A stretch of 64,000 nt of DNA from the sequence record DRR378314_213; one strand, 5' to 3'. The notes under the pieces are model-generated. The model saw only the letters and a program-made list of their open reading frames with translations, had not been told where the DNA came from and did no database searches. The translations under genes were made by a program, and so were the position numbers. The stretch's first letter is position 1. Each line of letters opens with the position of its first letter. Below, one piece after another: positions 44,775 to 50,427 of this stretch.

Positions 44775-46283
44775 TTATTGAAACCGCAGGCCGTCCCTTG
44801 GGGAGAAAGTCCAGTTTCTAGCAAACTCACTATTGATTTCCGTTCCAGCGATCCAGCGCTGAACCGTGTTATGTGATAGTAGGTTTTCTTGCGCCGCCAA
44901 TACCGCTTTTCCGAACGGCGTTAGAGTGACTATTTCTGTCCCAGGGCCCGGAATATCCAATTTCTGGGTAACCTTAATGGGCGGCTTTTTCAGTTTCAGA
45001 AGCTTGTCCATTAAGGCGAAAAACATCACATCCCCCTGAAAGGGTTGGGGGTCTTTTTCCGCATGGGTAATGAGAAAAAGTCGCCGAAGCAGAAGCTCCC
45101 CCTCTTCAGTTAAGGTCTGCAGGGCAAGCGTTTCGATCAGCGACAATCCGGTAACCGGATCTGGAAGTTCCCTTAAAAAGCGAAGGATTGCTTTTTGCAT
45201 TAAGGGAAGAGGTGATTTCTTTTCTCTTGCCAACGCCCATAGGGTTTCAGGTGTAGAGCTTGTCAACGCAGTCCACACACGCGCTCCAAATGCGATAATC
45301 GCAGGTGTTACGCTTAAGCGCTGTTGATACAGTAACTGAAGGTTTTCCGGCTCTGGCCCTAAATTACCAAGCCCGATGAAATTCTGAACGCCAGGGAAAC
45401 TATCCACCTGGATCAGGCTCGCATGAACAGAGGTCTGATCTTCCTGATTGCTCAAAAAATGACAGATATAGGCAAGACAGAATTGGTCATAAGCATCATG
45501 CTCAAACCAGAGCAGCATTTCACCCTCTAAAGTGTGAAGAGAAGAGAGAAAACTCAATTCCTTCGGCGCCAGTTTTTGGAGTTCTTTCCAGTGATCGGCA
45601 GGGATGTAGGCACCCAGATCTTCCTTTAGCACCTTTTGCCGGTGCATCTGACCGTCCTGATCACCAATTGGATAAACCGGACCATAAGTGAAGGGGTTGG
45701 AGATTTCCTGAAATTGGCCCTGAAAACCGGCGGCCTTCAACAGATCTTGAATGTCAGTTCCGCAACGGACATGGATATCCGTTGCTTGATCCATCGGCGG
45801 CGGCGCAAGCCGCAGTCGTTCCAGTAATTCAATATGTTGTTTTAGTTTTGGCCAACTGGAAAAGCCGTTTTCGCGGGCCAGGACATGCAGGCAATCTGCG
45901 AGTTTGAGCTCTGATGAGGCTCTTACGCCTGATTGGATTTTTGGATGCCATTCGGTAACTTTTAAAAGAGCTAGGGGATCTTCAGTCTGAACAGCTTTTA
46001 ACAGGGCCTTAGCCTGCTTTTTTAAATAGGAAAGGCTCAGTTTTTGACCGCTCATTTGCTGAAAGAGGATGACCATTTTCATGTCGAAGAGGGTCGCTTT
46101 GAAATCCGGCTTTGCAGCGGCGGGATGATAGCTTTTAACCAGATTGTGAGCGATGGCATCACCCTGTTGAAAGCGGGACCATAGCTGATCAGAAAGTTGC
46201 TTGATTTCCTGTTGTTTGTAGGCGGGGGATCGACCCTCAGTTGGGGTCAGGCGCACAATAGGTGTTGAATGTGATGTGGGCAT
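44775..46283 (-). CDS. DUF1835-like domain protein with N-terminal helical modules
   Basis: LKKQAKALLK...KLADCLHVLARENGFSSWPKLK module; HVRCGTDI, GPV, LWFEHDAYDQ, LRELP..GLS..E, FQGD. Confidence 0.7.
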   Translation of the reverse strand: MPTSHSTPIVRLTPTEGRSPAYKQQEIKQLSDQLWSRFQQGDAIAHNLVKSYHPAAAKPDFKATLFDMKMVILFQQMSGQKLSLSYLKKQAKALLKAVQTEDPLALLKVTEWHPKIQSGVRASSELKLADCLHVLARENGFSSWPKLKQHIELLERLRLAPPPMDQATDIHVRCGTDIQDLLKAAGFQGQFQEISNPFTYGPVYPIGDQDGQMHRQKVLKEDLGAYIPADHWKELQKLAPKELSFLSSLHTLEGEMLLWFEHDAYDQFCLAYICHFLSNQEDQTSVHASLIQVDSFPGVQNFIGLGNLGPEPENLQLLYQQRLSVTPAIIAFGARVWTALTSSTPETLWALAREKKSPLPLMQKAILRFLRELPDPVTGLSLIETLALQTLTEEGELLLRRLFLITHAEKDPQPFQGDVMFFALMDKLLKLKKPPIKVTQKLDIPGPGTEIVTLTPFGKAVLAAQENLLSHNTVQRWIAGTEINSEFARNWTFSPRDGLRFQ

Positions 46284-46403
46284 ACGAATTCCTTATCAAC
46301 GTATCCGCCACCGTTCAGAGTTCGTATCAAATTTTCACAATCTCTGTAAAATCACCATTTGGTCAATAACCTTTCCGCGGACAGGGGGCTTAACGGCAAA
46401 GCC
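46282..46403 (-). ncRNA. Candidate cis-regulatory structured 5' leader RNA
   Basis: Hairpin GGCUU/AAGCC whose loop UGCCGUU complements AACGGUG; UGUCCGC/GCGGAUA helix; AUACGAA/UUCGUAU helix overlapping the AUG. Confidence 0.5.
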
Positions 46404-46620
46404 ATCGCCAAAAAAGCATAAGCGTTTGTACCTGTCAATCCAGGAAACCGGGATGGGTATTTAGTAATCGGATAAGATGTAGGTAAAACTAATGTTCACA
46501 GATTTGACAAAGTTAACCTATGTAGTTGTTGGGAACGTATCAAAAGAAGGGGCGCGCTAACAGGGACAGTAAGCAAAAGCAGTGCAGTTGCTGATCTGAC
46601 CCAATAAGAGGAGTAGGAGA

Positions 46621-47592
46621 ATGCGGTTTCGCAAGATATCTGTTTTAGGGATGTTGCAGGTTGTGGGGGTGGTGTTGAGTGCACAGGCAATTGCAACTGA
46701 AGTGAAGGTGACGCCGCTGGGCAGTCACGATGGGGAGTTCTGTCCCTTGGACCGGGCCATGATCTTCGAAGATCCAGATGGGACCCGGTTGCTTTATGAT
46801 GCCGGCAGAACCGTTGCGGGCGGCGAAGATCCCAGGCTTGGAACAATCGATGCGGTTTTGGTCAGTCACATGCATGGAGATCATGTTGGTGACCGACATA
46901 TTGCCGCCGTGAATGAGGGAAGTTGCTCAAAACCAATGTTTCCAACGGTTTCTTTGCCAAATACCAATGCGGTGAATATTGCGGCTTCCAAGAACGCCAA
47001 AATTGTAACCGGTAGTGAAATGCCGAAATTCTTTGCTGCTAAGCTTAAATCAGTCGGTGCAGATCCGAAAAACTCCCAACTGGTTCGCTTTGGCGCCAGC
47101 CGGAAAATTGGGGGTGTGACAATCACGACCGTTCCAGCCGTCCATTCAAATGGGATTGCGGGTGCGATGATCGGCGGGGAACTTGGCGATCATATGGATG
47201 CGGCAGGACTAACCGCATATGCCGGTCCGCCAACCGGGTATGTGCTGACGTTCAGCAATGGCCTGGTTGCTTATCTTTCTGGTGATACCGGCGTGACGGC
47301 AGAACAGAAAATTGTCGTCGGGGATCAGTATAAAGCCAAATTGGTTGTTATGAATATTGGCGATACCTTTACCACAGGGCCGAAGGAAGCTGCCTATGTG
47401 ATCAATGACCTGATCAAACCGGCATCTGTCATTATCTCTCATGCCAATGAGCCTGCAACAAAAGACGGGAAGGTGATTGCGGGGACCCGCTCGGAAGAAT
47501 TCATGAAGATGAGTTCGGTGCCAGCCTACTTGCCGCTGAGCGGGGTAACACTGTCATTCGATGATGCTGGAAAATGTGTGTCCGGTTGTTAA
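46621..47592 (+). CDS. Secreted metallo-beta-lactamase-fold hydrolase
   Basis: Signal peptide; SHMHGDH, VHSN, SGDTG. Confidence 0.85.
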   Translation: MRFRKISVLGMLQVVGVVLSAQAIATEVKVTPLGSHDGEFCPLDRAMIFEDPDGTRLLYDAGRTVAGGEDPRLGTIDAVLVSHMHGDHVGDRHIAAVNEGSCSKPMFPTVSLPNTNAVNIAASKNAKIVTGSEMPKFFAAKLKSVGADPKNSQLVRFGASRKIGGVTITTVPAVHSNGIAGAMIGGELGDHMDAAGLTAYAGPPTGYVLTFSNGLVAYLSGDTGVTAEQKIVVGDQYKAKLVVMNIGDTFTTGPKEAAYVINDLIKPASVIISHANEPATKDGKVIAGTRSEEFMKMSSVPAYLPLSGVTLSFDDAGKCVSGC

Positions 47593-47610
47593 GAAACTGA
47601 CGTAAATCTT

Positions 47611-47640
47611 TGAAAGCGCTGGTGGTATCCAGCGCTTTCA
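47611..47640. terminator. Stem-loop/terminator between convergent genes
   Basis: TGAAAGCGCTGG-tggtat-CCAGCGCTTTCA. Confidence 0.75.
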
Positions 47641-47645
47641 TTTTG

Positions 47646-48446
47646 TCAGACCCGCCATTTCAAGAATGTTTTTTCCGCCCGGCCAATGAGCCAGCTTACC
47701 AGAAGGCCCATAATTGAGAGAATAGTCACACCGGCTACCAACTGATCCATCGCCATGAGGTTCCCCGCCAGAAGGATATAGGCGCCAATTCCATATTCGG
47801 CCCCGATCATTTCCGCCGCAACCAGCAAAATAATCGCGATGGAGGCGGAAATTCGAAAGCCGGATAAAATCGCCGGCATGGCGCCAGGCAATATGATTTT
47901 CCAGACGATAGAGTGCCATTTCAGATTAAAAGATTGCCCCATCCGGATCAGGTTTCGATCGACATTGTCGATGCCGCCATATACCGCAATTACTGTCGGG
48001 AAGAAGGTGCCAAATAAAATAGTGGCGATTTTGGATTCTTCGCCGATGCCAAACCAGATAATAAACAGCGGTAGTAATGCAATTTTCGGAATTGGAAAAA
48101 TCGCCGCTACCAGCGGAATAATCCCGCCTCTTGCCAATGTGAAAAGGCCCGCCGCCACGCCAAAAAGAATGCCAAGCAGGGATCCAAAGAACCAGCCCAC
48201 GACAAGCCTTTGCAGGGATGCGGCCAAATGTTTGACGAGATCGCCGGAATTAAGAAGGTCTTTAAACGCTGTAAAGGCCTCTGACGGGGCGGGAAGAACA
48301 AGCGGGCTGATCCAGCCACTTCGCGAGCCCAGCTCCCAGATAGTGATCAAAACAGTGAATAAGATGGGGGCGACAATTCGCATGGGTTTTGGCCGAAAGC
48401 CGCCACCGCGATAGGGAACCGTATTTTTGGGGTTGGGATCAGCCAT
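47646..48446 (-). CDS. NitT/TauT-family ABC transporter permease
   Basis: LPAPS, PIPKIALLPLFIIWFGIGE, LPGAMP, LVAAEM. Confidence 0.9.
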   Translation of the reverse strand: MADPNPKNTVPYRGGGFRPKPMRIVAPILFTVLITIWELGSRSGWISPLVLPAPSEAFTAFKDLLNSGDLVKHLAASLQRLVVGWFFGSLLGILFGVAAGLFTLARGGIIPLVAAIFPIPKIALLPLFIIWFGIGEESKIATILFGTFFPTVIAVYGGIDNVDRNLIRMGQSFNLKWHSIVWKIILPGAMPAILSGFRISASIAIILLVAAEMIGAEYGIGAYILLAGNLMAMDQLVAGVTILSIMGLLVSWLIGRAEKTFLKWRV

Positions 48447-49206
48447 GGACCAGCTCCATATCCGCAGCAACTGCTTCTTCGCGCATCAAGTCCCACAAAT
48501 AGGATTGCTTGGTTGCCAGCAAATCCGGGTTGGCTTTTCGCTCATCCAGAGGAATATCAATTTCCACAATTTCCCGGATTGTACCGGGCCGCCGGGAGAG
48601 CACGATGATTTTATGGCCAAGGCGTACCGCTTCATTCAGGTTATGGGTGACATAACAGGCGGTGTAGCGCTCCTTCAGCCAAAGATCCATCAGATCATCC
48701 ATCAACAGCTCACGGGTTTGGCTGTCAAGAGCGGAAAGGGGCTCATCCATTAACAGGCAGGCTGGCCGAACGGCAAGGGCTCGGGCAATGGCCACCCGCT
48801 GTTTCATGCCACCGGAAAGCTGTTTAGGCAGCGCATCCTTGAAATCGAATAGTTTGGTGCGCTTTAAGACATCATCTATGATCTGGTTGGCGTCGGCACC
48901 TTTAATGCCATGATCTTCTAACACCAGACTGACATTTCCCCGAACACTTCGCCACGGCAGAAGGGCAAAATCCTGAAAAATATAGGTGAGGGGGTTCAGG
49001 CAATCAGGCGGAGGGTTCCCCAGTTGAAAGACTTGCCCCTGATTGGGACGTTCCAGCCCACCCATAAATCGCAGAAGGGTTGATTTTCCACAGCCGGAGG
49101 GTCCGATCAGACAGACGATTTCTCCGGTTTTGATGTGAAAACTGATGTCTTTCAGGACTTCCGTGCCGTCATAGGCATGGCTGACGGCATTAAGTTCAAG
49201 ATCCAT
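48439..49206 (-). CDS. NitT/TauT-family ABC transporter ATP-binding protein
   Basis: GPSGCGKST, LLPWRSV, LSGGMKQR, DEPLSALD. Confidence 0.9.
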   Translation of the reverse strand: MDLELNAVSHAYDGTEVLKDISFHIKTGEIVCLIGPSGCGKSTLLRFMGGLERPNQGQVFQLGNPPPDCLNPLTYIFQDFALLPWRSVRGNVSLVLEDHGIKGADANQIIDDVLKRTKLFDFKDALPKQLSGGMKQRVAIARALAVRPACLLMDEPLSALDSQTRELLMDDLMDLWLKERYTACYVTHNLNEAVRLGHKIIVLSRRPGTIREIVEIDIPLDERKANPDLLATKQSYLWDLMREEAVAADMELVHG

Positions 49207-49223
49207 GATACGCCTGTCGGTTA

Positions 49224-49246
49224 GCCGGGCGAGCAAGCCGCCCGGC
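49224..49246. other. Intercistronic stem-loop after the substrate-binding gene
   Basis: GCCGGGCG-agcaagc-CGCCCGGC; probably stabilises the upstream mRNA segment (inference). Confidence 0.5.
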
Positions 49247-49262
49247 ATCAACAAATAAAGAC

Positions 49263-50300
49263 TTAATTGATCGTGGAGACGAAGCTTGTATCCACCATTT
49301 TATCAAGCGTGAGGCTTGCTGGTGCCAGTTTGTGTTTCTGGAACCATTTAAGCTGCTTTTCCACATCCTTGACATCAAGCGCTGCGCCTTCGTTCAAGTA
49401 GACCGCACCCGCTTTGATCGGCGGGGCCGCTTTTTCAATAGGACGATCTGCATAGACGTATTTATGGATCAGCTCGACCATGGCGTCAGTAGCTGCAGGG
49501 TCTTTATCTTGGTGCTGCATGACAGCGTCATAGTCCGCGATGCCTTTTGCATAAGCCTTCATAAAGCGGCTGACCAGGTCTTTGCGCTCAACTGTGTTTT
49601 TCGTCGAGGTGAAGATTGTGGTGACTTGATAATCGGACATGTCTTGGATCTGGCCAATGATTTGGGCAGCTCCGCCTTTGGCGAGGGCTTTGGCAATATG
49701 CGGAACAATAGCCATGGCATCCACCTGACCGGATTTCAACGCGCCGATCATGGAGCCAACCTTTTGCAGGGGCTTGAGTTTCATGTCGCTGATGTCAAAG
49801 CCGTTATTTTCCGCAATAAGACCCGCCATATAATGAAAGGAGGATCCTTGCTGTGTCATCGCCCAGCTTTTCCCTTTTAGGTCAGCCGCCGTTTTCAGAC
49901 CCGCTTCATAAGCCTTGTTAGAAGCCAGAATAATATTGCCGGGCGCGCCTTTCTTCTCTGACATCATGCCGCCAATAACTTTCAGGGCACCTTTGTCGGC
50001 AAGGCTATAAAAGCCGCCACTGAGTGCAGTCACACCAAAGTCGATATCGCCCGATGCAATGGCAACAGCGATTGGTTGGGCTGCCTGGAAGAATTTCAGT
50101 TCAACATCCAGCCCTTCCTCTTTGAAATAGCCCTTTTCATAAGCAATAAAGGTCGGGGAATGAGAGGTGAAGCGAAGTGCGCCAATGGTAATTTTATCAG
50201 CGGCAAGTGCCTGTCCGGCAAAAGCCGACAGTGCCGCTACACCGGCAATGGCGCCAAGCAGGGCCCGCCGTGTTACAGAGTTAAAAATTTTTGCTTTCAT
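49263..50300 (-). CDS. NitT/TauT (NMT1/SsuA-like) substrate-binding protein
   Basis: Signal with TRRALLG; IAYEKGYFKEEGLDVEL, DLKGK, ALKSGQVDA. Confidence 0.88.
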   Translation of the reverse strand: MKAKIFNSVTRRALLGAIAGVAALSAFAGQALAADKITIGALRFTSHSPTFIAYEKGYFKEEGLDVELKFFQAAQPIAVAIASGDIDFGVTALSGGFYSLADKGALKVIGGMMSEKKGAPGNIILASNKAYEAGLKTAADLKGKSWAMTQQGSSFHYMAGLIAENNGFDISDMKLKPLQKVGSMIGALKSGQVDAMAIVPHIAKALAKGGAAQIIGQIQDMSDYQVTTIFTSTKNTVERKDLVSRFMKAYAKGIADYDAVMQHQDKDPAATDAMVELIHKYVYADRPIEKAAPPIKAGAVYLNEGAALDVKDVEKQLKWFQKHKLAPASLTLDKMVDTSFVSTIN

Positions 50301-50427
50301 AGGTGAGTTCTCCCTTACATTGAAACTGTTTTTTCGGAAGGTACGCGATTGCTGGAAACCAATCAATCCAGAACAACACGAGTGGCTTGAAAAATGCAGA
50401 TTTCAGCGTAAGGGAGGGGTATGCCTG

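What the first reader, a model, noticed from the sequence alone, without database searches (positions are those of the whole stretch)
46282..46410. Pseudoknotted, switch-like leader RNA that can occlude the start codon
Seen on the minus strand, 5' to 3': hairpin GGCUU-[UGCCGUU]-AAGCC (46403-46387); UGUCCGC (46383-46377); GGAAA; small hairpins at 46371-46361 and 46352-46331; AUACGAA (46327-46321); AACGGUG (46315-46309) directly followed by GCGGAUA (46308-46302); RBS AAGGA; UUCGUAUG. The hairpin loop pairs with AACGGUG over 7 bp (2 GU) and UGUCCGC pairs with GCGGAUA over 7 bp (1 GU), giving adjacent stackable helices, i.e. a pseudoknot. Alternatively AUACGAA pairs with UUCGUAU, covering the AU of the AUG and looping out both 3' strands and the RBS. 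Inference: a translational riboswitch or protein-binding leader. I cannot match it to a known class.
Basis: partly seen in the sequence, partly recalled or inferred. Interest (0 to 1): 0.7.

Follow-up and report, generated by a model that had tools for sequence, protein, structure and literature searches.

The report
New pseudoknotted leader RNA hiding ribosome site
The stretch is a real, previously undescribed folded RNA at the start of an mRNA that buries the ribosome-binding site, and it is found in several bacterial phyla only in front of genes whose proteins begin with the same small helical module.

Summary
Comparative analysis shows a conserved ~125-nt 5' leader on the minus strand (46403-46281) in front of the 502-aa gene 44775-46283. 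P1 plus PK-a form an H-type pseudoknot (the P1 loop pairs with AAUGGU just 3' of P2, not with AACGGUG). Then come an invariant GGAAA junction, hairpin P2 and a variable linker. A long helix P3 pairs an anti-SD strand with the SD and the AU of AUG. Covariation supports the helices. A model built only from distant relatives finds this site alone in the window (E 5e-5). No Rfam 15 family matches. Searched from either side, RNA and protein stay together: credible RNA hits in Alpha- and Gammaproteobacteria, Cyanobacteria, Desulfobacterota and Actinomycetota precede ORFs starting with one ~70-aa helical module, fused to DUF1835, ankyrin, TPR, methyltransferase, glyoxalase or DUF6624 domains. Most likely it is a translational control leader. 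The effector is unknown; I favour the module itself over a small molecule.

The parts
46433..46438 (-). -35-like TTGACA of the presumed promoter
   Evidence: It is invariant in the 6 aligned clade members. A TTGnnn-N16-18-TAnnnT pattern ends 6-12 nt before P1 in 24 of 52 leaders, against 1% of shuffles. The window itself lacks a TAnnnT -10 at that spacing, and the consensus scan found no promoter. The TSS was not measured.
46387..46403 (-). P1 hairpin GGCUU-UGCCGUU-AAGCC
   Evidence: As a 4-bp stem it is 87.5% paired in A5 and 83.8% in A7, with changes on both sides.
46392..46397 (-). PK-a 5' strand (P1 loop, GCCGUU)
   Evidence: It pairs with 46359-46354 (6 bp, 2 G.U; extendable to 8). The helix is 96.2% paired in A5, with 5 of 6 pairs changed on both sides. 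In the alignment-free test, a leader's own loop and tail form >=6 contiguous bp in 24 of 48 cases, against 8.8% of mismatched combinations.
46377..46383 (-). PK-b 5' strand UGUCCGC
   Evidence: It pairs with 46308-46302 (7 bp). The helix is 100% paired over 6 bp in A5 and 91.4% in A7, with 5 of 7 pairs changed on both sides. There are 23 distinct strand-pair types.
46372..46376 (-). Near-invariant junction GGAAA (GRAAA/GGGAA in relatives)
   Evidence: Invariant columns in A3, A5 and A7. It is unpaired in the model.
46361..46371 (-). P2 hairpin GGU-UAUUG-ACC
   Evidence: 98.2% paired in A5, with 4 of 4 pairs changed on both sides; 100% paired in A7.
46354..46359 (-). PK-a 3' strand AAUGGU
46329..46353 (-). 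Variable linker (contains the window-specific hairpin 46352-46331)
   Evidence: There is no conservation of sequence or length among relatives.
46318..46327 (-). P3 5' strand (anti-SD/anti-start) AUACGAACUC
   Evidence: It pairs with 46291-46282 (9 of 10 positions). P3 is 92.2% paired in A5, and its 9-bp core is 80.9% paired in A7. Single-sequence folds give the same helix in 39 of 40 leaders.
46298..46315 (-). P4 hairpin AACG-GUGGCGGAUA-CGUU, with the PK-b 3' strand in its loop
   Evidence: P4 is 72.6% paired in A5 and 83.2% in A7, with changes on both sides.
46302..46308 (-). PK-b 3' strand GCGGAUA
46282..46294 (-). SD AAGGA (46294-46290) and P3 3' strand GAAUUCGUAU (46291-46282), covering part of the SD and the AU of AUG
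44775..46283 (-). Regulated gene, 502 aa. An N-terminal helical module (best copy at residues ~78-160) is followed by DUF1835
   Evidence: ORF. Pfam DUF1835 at residues 170-283, E 2.7e-10. Module alignment A8. AF2 model with pLDDT 94.5.

Best explanation
The element is the 5' untranslated leader of the mRNA of gene 44775-46283, and it acts in cis on translation initiation. The fold and its conservation are shown. A 5' domain consists of an H-type pseudoknot (P1/PK-a), the invariant GGAAA junction and hairpin P2. A variable linker joins it to a 3' domain. There a 10-14-bp helix, P3, pairs a pyrimidine-rich anti-SD strand with the Shine-Dalgarno sequence and, in this clade, the AU of AUG. P3 is capped by hairpin P4. 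Six to eight bases of the P4 loop pair with the strand between P1 and the GGAAA junction (PK-b). PK-b abuts the 3' strand of P4, so PK-b, P4 and P3 can stack. From here on I am inferring. In the fully folded state the 5' domain docks on the P4 loop and clamps the SD-sequestering helix, so the folded RNA is the OFF state. Expression then depends on whatever strengthens or weakens that docking. I take the effector to be the product of the gene itself. The ~70-aa N-terminal helical module is the only thing shared by all downstream proteins, so I propose it recognises the folded 5' domain and gives negative feedback on its own translation. My odds: a real structured cis-regulatory RNA about 0.95; control through SD occlusion about 0.8; the module as effector about 0.4.
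For: Conservation beyond the gene:
- Relatives only 42-52% identical in protein carry an alignable leader.

Independent detection:
- Model R2, built from 14 leaders of one clade, found 25 further leaders at E <= 7e-6.
- Model R3, built from 25 distant leaders with none from the window's clade, found one site in the 64-kb window. That site is 46278-46422(-), 23.0 bits, E 5.3e-5; the next best has E 1.2.

Covariation:
- On A7, 83.3% of cells are paired against 36-45% when slid, and 0 of 500 shuffles reach the covariation score. PK-b columns split CG:12/UA:12, CG:16/UA:9 and CG:16/UA:9.
- On A5, 90.6% of cells are paired against 30-43% when slid.
- PK-a passes the alignment-free test.

Strand specificity:
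- G.U cells outnumber A.C cells, 34 to 8 in A5 and 85 to 44 in A7.

SD occlusion:
- Single-sequence folds of the 3' domain give P3 (anti-SD:SD) capped by P4 in 39 of 40 leaders. The 40th, L027, conforms once its true start is included.
- No terminator-like site is present.

A promoter-like pattern ends 6-12 nt before P1 in 24 of 52 leaders, against 1% of shuffles.

Link to the module, searching from the RNA:
- All 7 hits in 151 alphaproteobacterial genomes precede an ORF that starts with the module.
- So do 9 of 10 hits in 151 gammaproteobacterial genomes.
- The C-terminal domains differ: DUF1835 x5, ankyrin x4 (one with glyoxalase), methyltransferase x3, TPR x1, DUF6624 x1.

Link to the module, searching from the protein:
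- In the same gamma sample, all 9 strong module matches (E <= 1e-18) lie directly behind those 9 RNA hits.
- 40 of 47 module-bearing loci from the protein searches have the RNA.
- None of 20 DUF1835 loci lacking the module has a full RNA hit. One, L040, keeps only the P3/P4 half and has the module deleted.

Neighbouring genes are not conserved, so the gene and its leader form a self-contained unit.
Against: - No experiment or RNA-seq bears on it. No sequencing run was listed, so the TSS is unknown, and the window lacks a good -10.
- Nothing shows that the module binds RNA. Its AF2 model (pLDDT 94.5) matches no solved fold: Foldseek gave no hit at E <= 1e-3, and the best VIA Z was 4.0. The profile search of PDB sequences found nothing either.
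- The module occurs without a detectable RNA in some genes. In the alpha sample only 10 of 17 module genes have the RNA at E <= 1e-3, with 3 more weak. In Actinomycetota the figure is 5 of 9, with 1 more weak. There are also 7 of 47 misses in the protein-first loci.
- P3 plus P4 is stable on its own (-10.6 to -27 kcal/mol). It is therefore unclear how translation is ever switched on, and I found no conserved alternative (ON) fold: the GGAAA:UUUCC alternative appears in only 4 of 51 truncated folds.
- Highly conserved unpaired junction bases are equally typical of small-molecule aptamers.
- The counts involve related sequences and are not independent events.
Confidence: 0.4

Rival explanations
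1. It is a small-molecule (or ion) riboswitch. The 5' pseudoknot domain, together with the PK-b contact, forms an aptamer. Ligand binding stabilises docking on P4 and so stabilises the SD-sequestering helix P3 (a translational OFF switch). The shared N-terminal protein module relates to the same compound, or is only a passenger.
For: The anatomy is the same as in the best explanation. There are near-invariant unpaired nucleotides at helix junctions (GGAAA, and CC before PK-b). Two subdomains joined by a variable linker and a bridging pseudoknot recall some riboswitch classes; that comparison is my recollection and was not tested. The element occurs in several phyla and at one to two copies per genome. 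The downstream domains (glyoxalase/VOC, methyltransferase) could plausibly act on a small molecule.
Against: Riboswitch regulons are tied together by a pathway, not by one N-terminal protein domain. Here every credible RNA hit precedes the same module whatever the enzyme domain. No transporter or biosynthetic gene, and no conserved neighbourhood, is associated with it. No ligand can be inferred.
Confidence: 0.3
2. It is a structured leader read by another factor or condition. Candidates are temperature (an RNA thermometer), RNase III or another nuclease acting on the 17-21-bp P3/P4 stack, a trans-acting sRNA or helicase, or an mRNA stability or localisation element. Neither a dedicated metabolite nor the encoded protein would be the signal.
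For: The SD-sequestering P3/P4 hairpin is long and stable by itself. No conserved alternative fold was found. In the window's clade P3 is A/U-rich.
Against: A simple thermometer or nuclease site would not need an elaborate 5' domain with two covarying pseudoknots and invariant junction bases. It also does not explain the strict link to the module. No Rfam thermometer or leader family matches.
Confidence: 0.2
3. The conserved blocks are DNA operator half-sites (inverted repeats bound by a transcription factor), not RNA helices.
For: The element lies between a promoter-like site and the start codon. Inverted repeats can co-vary when a regulator's specificity changes.
Against: Six separate helices, two of them crossing, with very different arm spacings, fit an RNA fold and not an operator. 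G.U cells exceed A.C cells by 34 to 8 and 85 to 44, which is strand-specific. One helix pairs the SD.
Confidence: 0.03
4. It is chance complementarity in an ordinary untranslated region.
For: The window sequence alone folds no better than shuffles (z -1.19).
Against: Conservation and covariation hold across more than 60 leaders from several phyla, and models built without the window's clade detect the site.
Confidence: 0.01

Closest known systems
Translational OFF riboswitches built on pseudoknots (e.g. SAM-II/SAM-V, preQ1-II/III, ZTP/pfl; named from my own knowledge)
   Same: It is a 5' leader with covarying helices, an H-type pseudoknot and invariant junction nucleotides, and the SD is buried in a helix that depends on the fold. 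As recalled for ZTP, two subdomains are separated by a variable linker and bridged by a pseudoknot.
   Different: No Rfam 15 model matches the window at E <= 10, or 20 diverse relatives at gathering score. No ligand is known. The SD helix is much longer (10-14 bp). The regulon is defined by a shared protein module, not by a pathway.
Autoregulatory protein-binding mRNA leaders (ribosomal-protein leaders, thrS operator; named from my own knowledge)
   Same: There is a one-to-one association between a structured leader and the protein encoded directly downstream. It occurs at one or two copies per genome. The SD or start codon lies inside the structure.
   Different: The partner would be a portable ~70-aa module fused to unrelated C-terminal domains. 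It is not a ribosomal or tRNA-binding protein, RNA binding by the module is unproven, and its fold matches nothing solved.
RNA thermometers / simple SD-sequestering hairpins (ROSE, fourU; from my own knowledge)
   Same: A hairpin pairs a U/C-rich strand with the SD.
   Different: A large conserved 5' domain with two pseudoknots is attached. There is no Rfam match, and the downstream genes are not heat-shock or virulence genes.

Membership tests
Any Rfam 15 family (4227 models) | Covariance-model match at or near the family's gathering score | tested here: not met
   The window at gathering score gave 0 hits. Region 46200-46500 at E <= 10 gave only LOOT (plus strand, 13.3 bits against 46.4) and GlsR6 snoRNA (12.8 against 75). 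Twenty diverse relatives' loci at gathering score gave only a tRNA elsewhere.
The new leader family defined here (models R1-R3) | A significant match of the window to a model built without the window or its clade | tested here: met
   R3, built from 25 distant leaders, matches 46278-46422(-) at 23.0 bits, E 5.3e-5. The next best hit in 64 kb on both strands has E 1.2.
The new leader family defined here | PK-b: the strand 5' of GGAAA pairs with the P4 loop | tested here: met
   The window forms 7 of 7 pairs. The helix is 91.4-100% paired across relatives, with compensatory changes.
The new leader family defined here | The downstream ORF begins with the helical module | tested here: met
   Window protein residues 78-160 align with 19 other modules and fold with pLDDT 94.5.
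H-type pseudoknot (P1/PK-a) | The hairpin loop pairs with a downstream single strand, supported by covariation | tested here: met
   96.2% paired, with 5 of 6 pairs changed on both sides. A leader's own loop and tail beat mismatched ones. The window forms 6-8 bp. PK-a was not evident in about a quarter of leaders (13 of 48 have fewer than 5 bp).
Riboswitch (generic) | Direct, selective binding of a small molecule that changes the fold and expression | not testable with these tools
   No ligand candidate emerges from the gene context. This needs in-line probing or reporters.
Riboswitch (generic) | Two mutually exclusive conserved conformations (aptamer versus expression platform) | tested here: inconclusive
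   All conserved helices are mutually compatible. The one candidate alternative (GGAAA:UUUCC) appears in 4 of 51 truncated MFE folds. Nearest-neighbour folding cannot model pseudoknots or kinetics.
Autoregulatory protein-binding leader | The encoded protein binds its own leader and represses translation | not testable with these tools
   There is only co-occurrence evidence. The module has no recognisable RNA-binding fold.
ZTP (pfl) riboswitch | A match to RF01750 and association with purine or folate genes | tested here: not met
   There is no such Rfam hit. The downstream genes are DUF1835, ankyrin and the like. The resemblance is architectural only and is recalled, not tested.

The most novel reading that the evidence does not exclude
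The leader RNA and the ~70-aa N-terminal helical module form a portable, self-contained regulatory cassette. The module (alone, or with a signal it senses) binds the double-pseudoknot leader of its own mRNA. The pair has been fused repeatedly to unrelated effector domains (DUF1835, ankyrin, TPR, methyltransferase, glyoxalase, DUF6624) across at least five phyla. This would be a new RNA-binding protein fold together with a new cis-regulatory RNA class, spreading as one unit.
Probability: 0.35. Interest if true: 0.85.

Novelty: new variant of a known kind. Interest (0 to 1): 0.78.

Why it matters
It adds a well-supported new class to the catalogue of bacterial cis-regulatory RNAs. The class has more than 60 examples here, two covarying pseudoknots, and members in Alpha- and Gammaproteobacteria, Cyanobacteria, Desulfobacterota and Actinomycetota. 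It matches nothing in Rfam 15, and I found no description in the literature I could search.

Its unusual property is the near one-to-one link to an uncharacterised protein module rather than to a pathway. This gives a direct, testable handle on three unknowns at once: the function of the RNA, the function of the module, and the biology of DUF1835-type and ankyrin-type proteins of unknown role. If the module is the effector, it is a compact RNA-protein switch that nature has already shown to be transferable between genes.

Tried and rejected
Family, literature and prior-note searches that found nothing:
- Rfam on the window and on 20 relatives gave no family.
- No whole genome is held for this window.
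- Sequencing runs for 45900-46700: none was listed, so there is no RNA holder and no TSS data.
- Literature searches gave nothing relevant: DUF1835 (3 papers, listing only, unrelated); riboswitch candidate + ankyrin + pseudoknot (1 unrelated); the 12-nt core motif string (3 unrelated eukaryote or malaria papers); 'novel structured noncoding RNA' + ankyrin (0).
- Main-text term searches of Weinberg 2017 (PMC5737381) and Narunsky 2024 (PMC11109978) for ankyrin, glyoxalase, DUF1835 and related terms gave 0 occurrences. Their supplements were not examined and could list a motif I missed.
- Earlier findings of this scan, searched by sequence, words and place: nothing.

Attempts to identify the module or the proteins:
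- Pfam and NCBIfam on the module gave only a sub-threshold hit to the N-terminus of PF20066 Glyoxalase_8 (E 0.037).
- The PDB sequence profile search found nothing.
- Foldseek on pdb and VIA wide gave no clear fold. My impression that the second half of the module looks like a helix-extension-helix (SAP-like) motif is recall only and was not borne out by these searches.
- The ESM Atlas gave only unnamed clusters at 0.79.
- PADLOC gave only generic ankyrin and methyltransferase similarity.
- The search for homologous proteins on the module region returned only 3 ankyrin proteins, because of its word index.

Structural ideas rejected:
- A conserved leader peptide. An AUG inside the P1 3' strand opens a short ORF in some Sneathiella-clade leaders, but not in the window or in distant leaders.
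- The anti-anti-SD alternative GGAAA:UUUCC, seen in 4 of 51 folds.
- A conserved operon or neighbourhood.

Hits judged spurious on inspection:
- L084 (E 5e-4; no core motif, no ORF).
- L090 (E 7.6e-5; AT-rich; lacks the core).

Method limitations:
- CM-based alignments (A4, A6) misplace the P3 5' strand of distant leaders. For that reason pair counts were made on the MAFFT alignments A5 and A7.
Full report
**1. What is in the window.**
On the minus strand, a 502-aa ORF (44775-46283, ATG at 46283-46281) is preceded by 337 nt of non-coding sequence. This runs up to a divergently oriented metallo-beta-lactamase-fold gene (46621-47592, plus strand). The ORF carries only a Pfam DUF1835 domain (residues 170-283, E 2.7e-10).

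Taken alone the sequence is unremarkable. The MFE is -36.9 kcal/mol with z = -1.19, and 22 of 200 shuffles fold as well. The consensus scans found no promoter and no terminator.

**2. Relatives carry the same leader.**
No genome is held for the window. A protein-based scan of one genome per species returned 40 loci, and a metagenome scan returned 27 more.

The closest proteins come from Sneathiella, Terasakiella and Sneathiellales and are only 42-52% identical. Even so, the ~130 nt before their start codons align with the window. The alignment has invariant blocks, a shared TTGACA and a start-proximal block ending in AUG.

A simple motif search then found the core in distant homologues from Gammaproteobacteria, a cyanobacterium and unclassified metagenome contigs.

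**3. Architecture.**
From alignments A3, A5 and A7 I derive the following, with window coordinates verified:

- **P1:** 46403-46399 pairs with 46391-46387.
- **PK-a:** the P1 loop GCCGUU (46397-46392) pairs with AAUGGU (46359-46354) immediately 3' of P2. One nucleotide lies between P1 and PK-a on the 5' side and none on the 3' side, which is the geometry of a classical H-type pseudoknot.
- **PK-b:** the 5' strand UGUCCGC (46383-46377) pairs with GCGGAUA (46308-46302), which lies in the P4 loop.
- **Junction:** GGAAA (46376-46372), near-invariant.
- **P2:** 46371-46369 pairs with 46363-46361.
- **Linker:** 46353-46329, variable.
- **P3:** AUACGAACUC (46327-46318) pairs with GAAUUCGUAU (46291-46282). 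This covers two bases of the SD AAGGA and the AU of AUG.
- **P4:** AACG (46315-46312) pairs with CGUU (46301-46298), nested inside P3.

PK-b directly abuts the P4 3' strand, and three bases separate it from the P4 5' strand. It can therefore stack on P4 and P3. This last point is my geometric inference.

**4. Tests of the structure.**
On the 25 distant leaders (A7), 83.3% of cells are paired, against 36-45% when partners are slid by 1-3 columns. None of 500 shuffles reaches the observed covariation score.

PK-b is 91.4% paired, with 5 of 7 pairs changed on both sides. Its central columns split CG:12/UA:12, CG:16/UA:9 and CG:16/UA:9. Concretely, UCCGC:GCGGA is replaced by CUUGC:GCAAG, UCUGC:GCAGA, CUCGC:GCGAG, CCCGC:GCGGG and others. 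There are 23 distinct strand pairs among 40 leaders.

On the 14 leaders of the window's clade (A5), 90.6% of cells are paired, against 30-43% when slid:

| Helix | Cells paired | Note |
|---|---|---|
| PK-a | 96.2% | 5 of 6 pairs changed on both sides |
| PK-b | 100% | |
| P2 | 98.2% | 4 of 4 pairs changed on both sides |
| P3 | 92.2% | |
| P4 | 72.6% | |

PK-a loops are hard to align across clades, so I also tested them without an alignment. A leader's own P1 loop and the 11 nt after its own P2 form at least 5 contiguous pairs in 35 of 48 distinct cases, and at least 6 in 24 of 48. For mismatched loop/tail combinations the rates are 27.7% and 8.8% (n = 2194). About a quarter of leaders (13 of 48) show no convincing PK-a.

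G.U/U.G cells outnumber A.C/C.A cells, 34 to 8 in A5 and 85 to 44 in A7. This indicates pairing in the RNA of this strand rather than a DNA palindrome.

Single-sequence folding of the 3' domain reproduces P3 (anti-SD:SD) capped by P4 in 39 of 40 leaders. The exception, L027, conforms once the sequence is extended to its true start.

**5. Is the window's copy a member?**
Model R2, built from the window's clade plus one other leader, finds 25 non-seed leaders at E <= 7e-6.

Conversely, model R3 was built only from distant leaders. Run with filters off on both strands of the whole window, it finds 46278-46422(-) at 23.0 bits, E 5.3e-5. The next best hit has E 1.2.

**6.
Counted on A5, his helix UGUCCGC:GCGGAUA (98.0% paired) and his start-codon helix (91.8%) hold. 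His loop:AACGGUG helix is paired in only 44.9% of cells, which is the level of the slid controls.

In relatives AACGGUG corresponds to the 5' strand and loop of P4. His hairpin at 46371-46361 is P2. His hairpin at 46352-46331 lies in the variable linker.

He read the start-codon helix as an alternative to the pseudoknot. The comparative data show it as the outer helix of a 3' domain that is compatible with PK-b.

I looked for a conserved competing fold, with the invariant GGAAA pairing with the anti-SD UUUCC in transcripts truncated before the SD. It appeared in only 4 of 51 MFE folds. 'Switch-like' behaviour therefore remains unproven.

**7. Known families.**
Rfam 15 gives nothing at gathering score in the window. 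At E <= 10 in 46200-46500 it gives only two noise hits. In 20 diverse relatives' loci it gives only a tRNA elsewhere.

Literature searches found nothing relevant. The main texts of two large motif-discovery papers do not mention the associated gene families. I did not examine their supplements.

**8. What the RNA goes with.**
Neighbouring genes differ from locus to locus. Genomes that have the RNA carry one or two copies.

The downstream proteins are not all DUF1835 proteins. The loci L061, L065 and L066 encode ankyrin-repeat proteins that share only an N-terminal ~70-aa helical segment with the window protein.

*Searching from the RNA.* In 151 sampled alphaproteobacterial genomes, model R1 gave 7 hits in 6 genomes. 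In 151 gammaproteobacterial genomes it gave 10 hits in 8 genomes.

All 7 alpha hits, and 9 of the 10 gamma hits, lie directly upstream of an ORF that begins with this segment. The tenth, L084, is the weakest (E 5e-4), lacks the core and has no ORF.

Pfam assigns the C-terminal parts of 14 of these ORFs as follows:

| C-terminal domain | ORFs |
|---|---|
| DUF1835 | 5 |
| Ankyrin repeats (one also with a glyoxalase domain) | 4 |
| Class I methyltransferase | 3 |
| TPR | 1 |
| DUF6624 | 1 |

In a cyanobacterial sample, only the genome already known had the RNA. A second hit is spurious.

*Searching from the protein.* I used a profile of the module (A8). In the same gamma sample there are 11 matches. 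The 9 strong ones (E <= 1e-18) are exactly the ORFs behind the 9 RNA hits. The 2 weak ones (a fragment at a contig end, and one at E 1.8e-7) have no RNA.

In the alpha sample, 17 module genes were found. Of these, 10 have the RNA at E <= 1e-3, 3 have weak matches (E 0.007-0.045) and 4 have none.

In 151 Actinomycetota there are 9 module genes. Five have the RNA at E <= 1e-3, one has a partial weak match and 3 have none.

*Among the loci from the original protein searches.* 40 of 47 module-bearing loci have the RNA. The misses are L045, L049, L050, L051, L055, L063 and L064, and two of these lack upstream DNA. None of the 20 DUF1835 loci without the module has a full RNA hit.

One of those 20, L040, is an L009-like gene in which the module has been excised. 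Only the P3/P4 half of the leader remains there.

These counts involve related sequences and are not independent events, but the direction is consistent. The RNA tracks the module, not the enzyme domain.

**9. The module.**
It is not in Pfam-A or NCBIfam. The best match is a sub-threshold hit to the N-terminus of PF20066 (E 0.037).

AlphaFold2 with the 20-sequence alignment gives a confident five-helix domain (pLDDT 94.5, pTM 0.82). It has no significant match among solved structures. Foldseek gave no hit at E <= 1e-3, the best VIA-align Z was 4.0, and the PDB sequence profile search found nothing. Its activity is therefore unknown.

**10. Promoter.**
A TTGnnn-N16-18-TAnnnT pattern ends 6-12 nt upstream of P1 in 24 of 52 leaders, against 1% of shuffled upstream regions. 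In relatives, therefore, the RNA probably starts at or just before P1.

The window has the TTGACA (46438-46433) but no TAnnnT at the right spacing. No expression data could be obtained.

**11. Mechanism.**
*Shown:* a conserved double-pseudoknot leader whose 3' helix buries the SD (and part of the AUG in this clade), no terminator, and strict association with one protein module.

*Inferred:* the fully folded state blocks 30S binding (OFF). Docking of the 5' domain onto the P4 loop through PK-b stabilises the P3/P4 stack.

*The effector is open.* I favour feedback by the encoded protein's N-terminal module (about 0.4), because the module is the only common denominator of the regulated genes. A small-molecule riboswitch is the main rival (about 0.3), favoured by the invariant junction nucleotides. 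Other readers, such as temperature, a nuclease or another trans-acting factor, take about 0.2.

The weak point of every model is how the stable P3/P4 hairpin (-10.6 to -27 kcal/mol alone) is ever opened.

**12. Verdict.**
It is a new, multi-phylum class of cis-regulatory leader RNA with two covarying pseudoknots, absent from Rfam 15, and coupled to an uncharacterised protein module.

Noticed in passing
L040:560-760 (compare L009): This is a natural deletion variant. The DUF1835 gene is L009-like, but the N-terminal module is excised and only the P3/P4 half of the leader remains. The 5' pseudoknot domain is replaced by the end of an upstream gene.
   Followed up: partly
L049:1240-1440 and L050:1255-1455: These high-GC module-bearing genes have no model hit. 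They do have a GGUCCGC...GCGGACC pair at the right places and an SD-proximal helix, and they lack the GGAAAGGG/P2 core. They may be a divergent variant of the leader.
   Followed up: no
L116 (G001:C2:64878-65072, minus strand): The Sneathiella genome closest to the window holds a second, weaker module match (E 5.6e-9, 181-aa frame) with no detectable leader. So the module can occur without the RNA.
   Followed up: partly
window 46276-46464 (+): A 62-aa ORF lies antisense to the leader. It is almost certainly spurious, since the conservation pattern and the G.U excess point to the minus strand.
   Followed up: partly
L002:2890-2940 and other Sneathiella-clade leaders: The 3' strand of P1 contains an AUG that opens a 10-18-codon ORF running through the PK-b strand and P2. 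It is absent from the window and from distant leaders, so it is not a conserved leader peptide.
   Followed up: partly
window 45804-46283 (-), protein residues 1-160: The window protein and its close relatives (e.g. L078) appear to carry two tandem copies of the helical module, the first degenerate. G094:C557 also has two module matches in one ORF.
   Followed up: no
window 46621-50366: Upstream of the leader, in divergent orientation, is a secreted-looking MBL-fold protein (46621-47592, +). It is followed on the minus strand by what looks like an ABC transporter set: permease 47646-48470, ATPase 48439-49254 and binding protein 49263-50366. L001 shares the MBL-fold and AMP-binding neighbours; other loci do not.
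   Followed up: partly
L029:2905-3060: This DUF1835 gene keeps the N-terminal 'MIESLPTLRQQF' peptide typical of the Thiodiazotropha-type proteins but lacks the module and has no leader. It is a second apparent co-loss.
   Followed up: no
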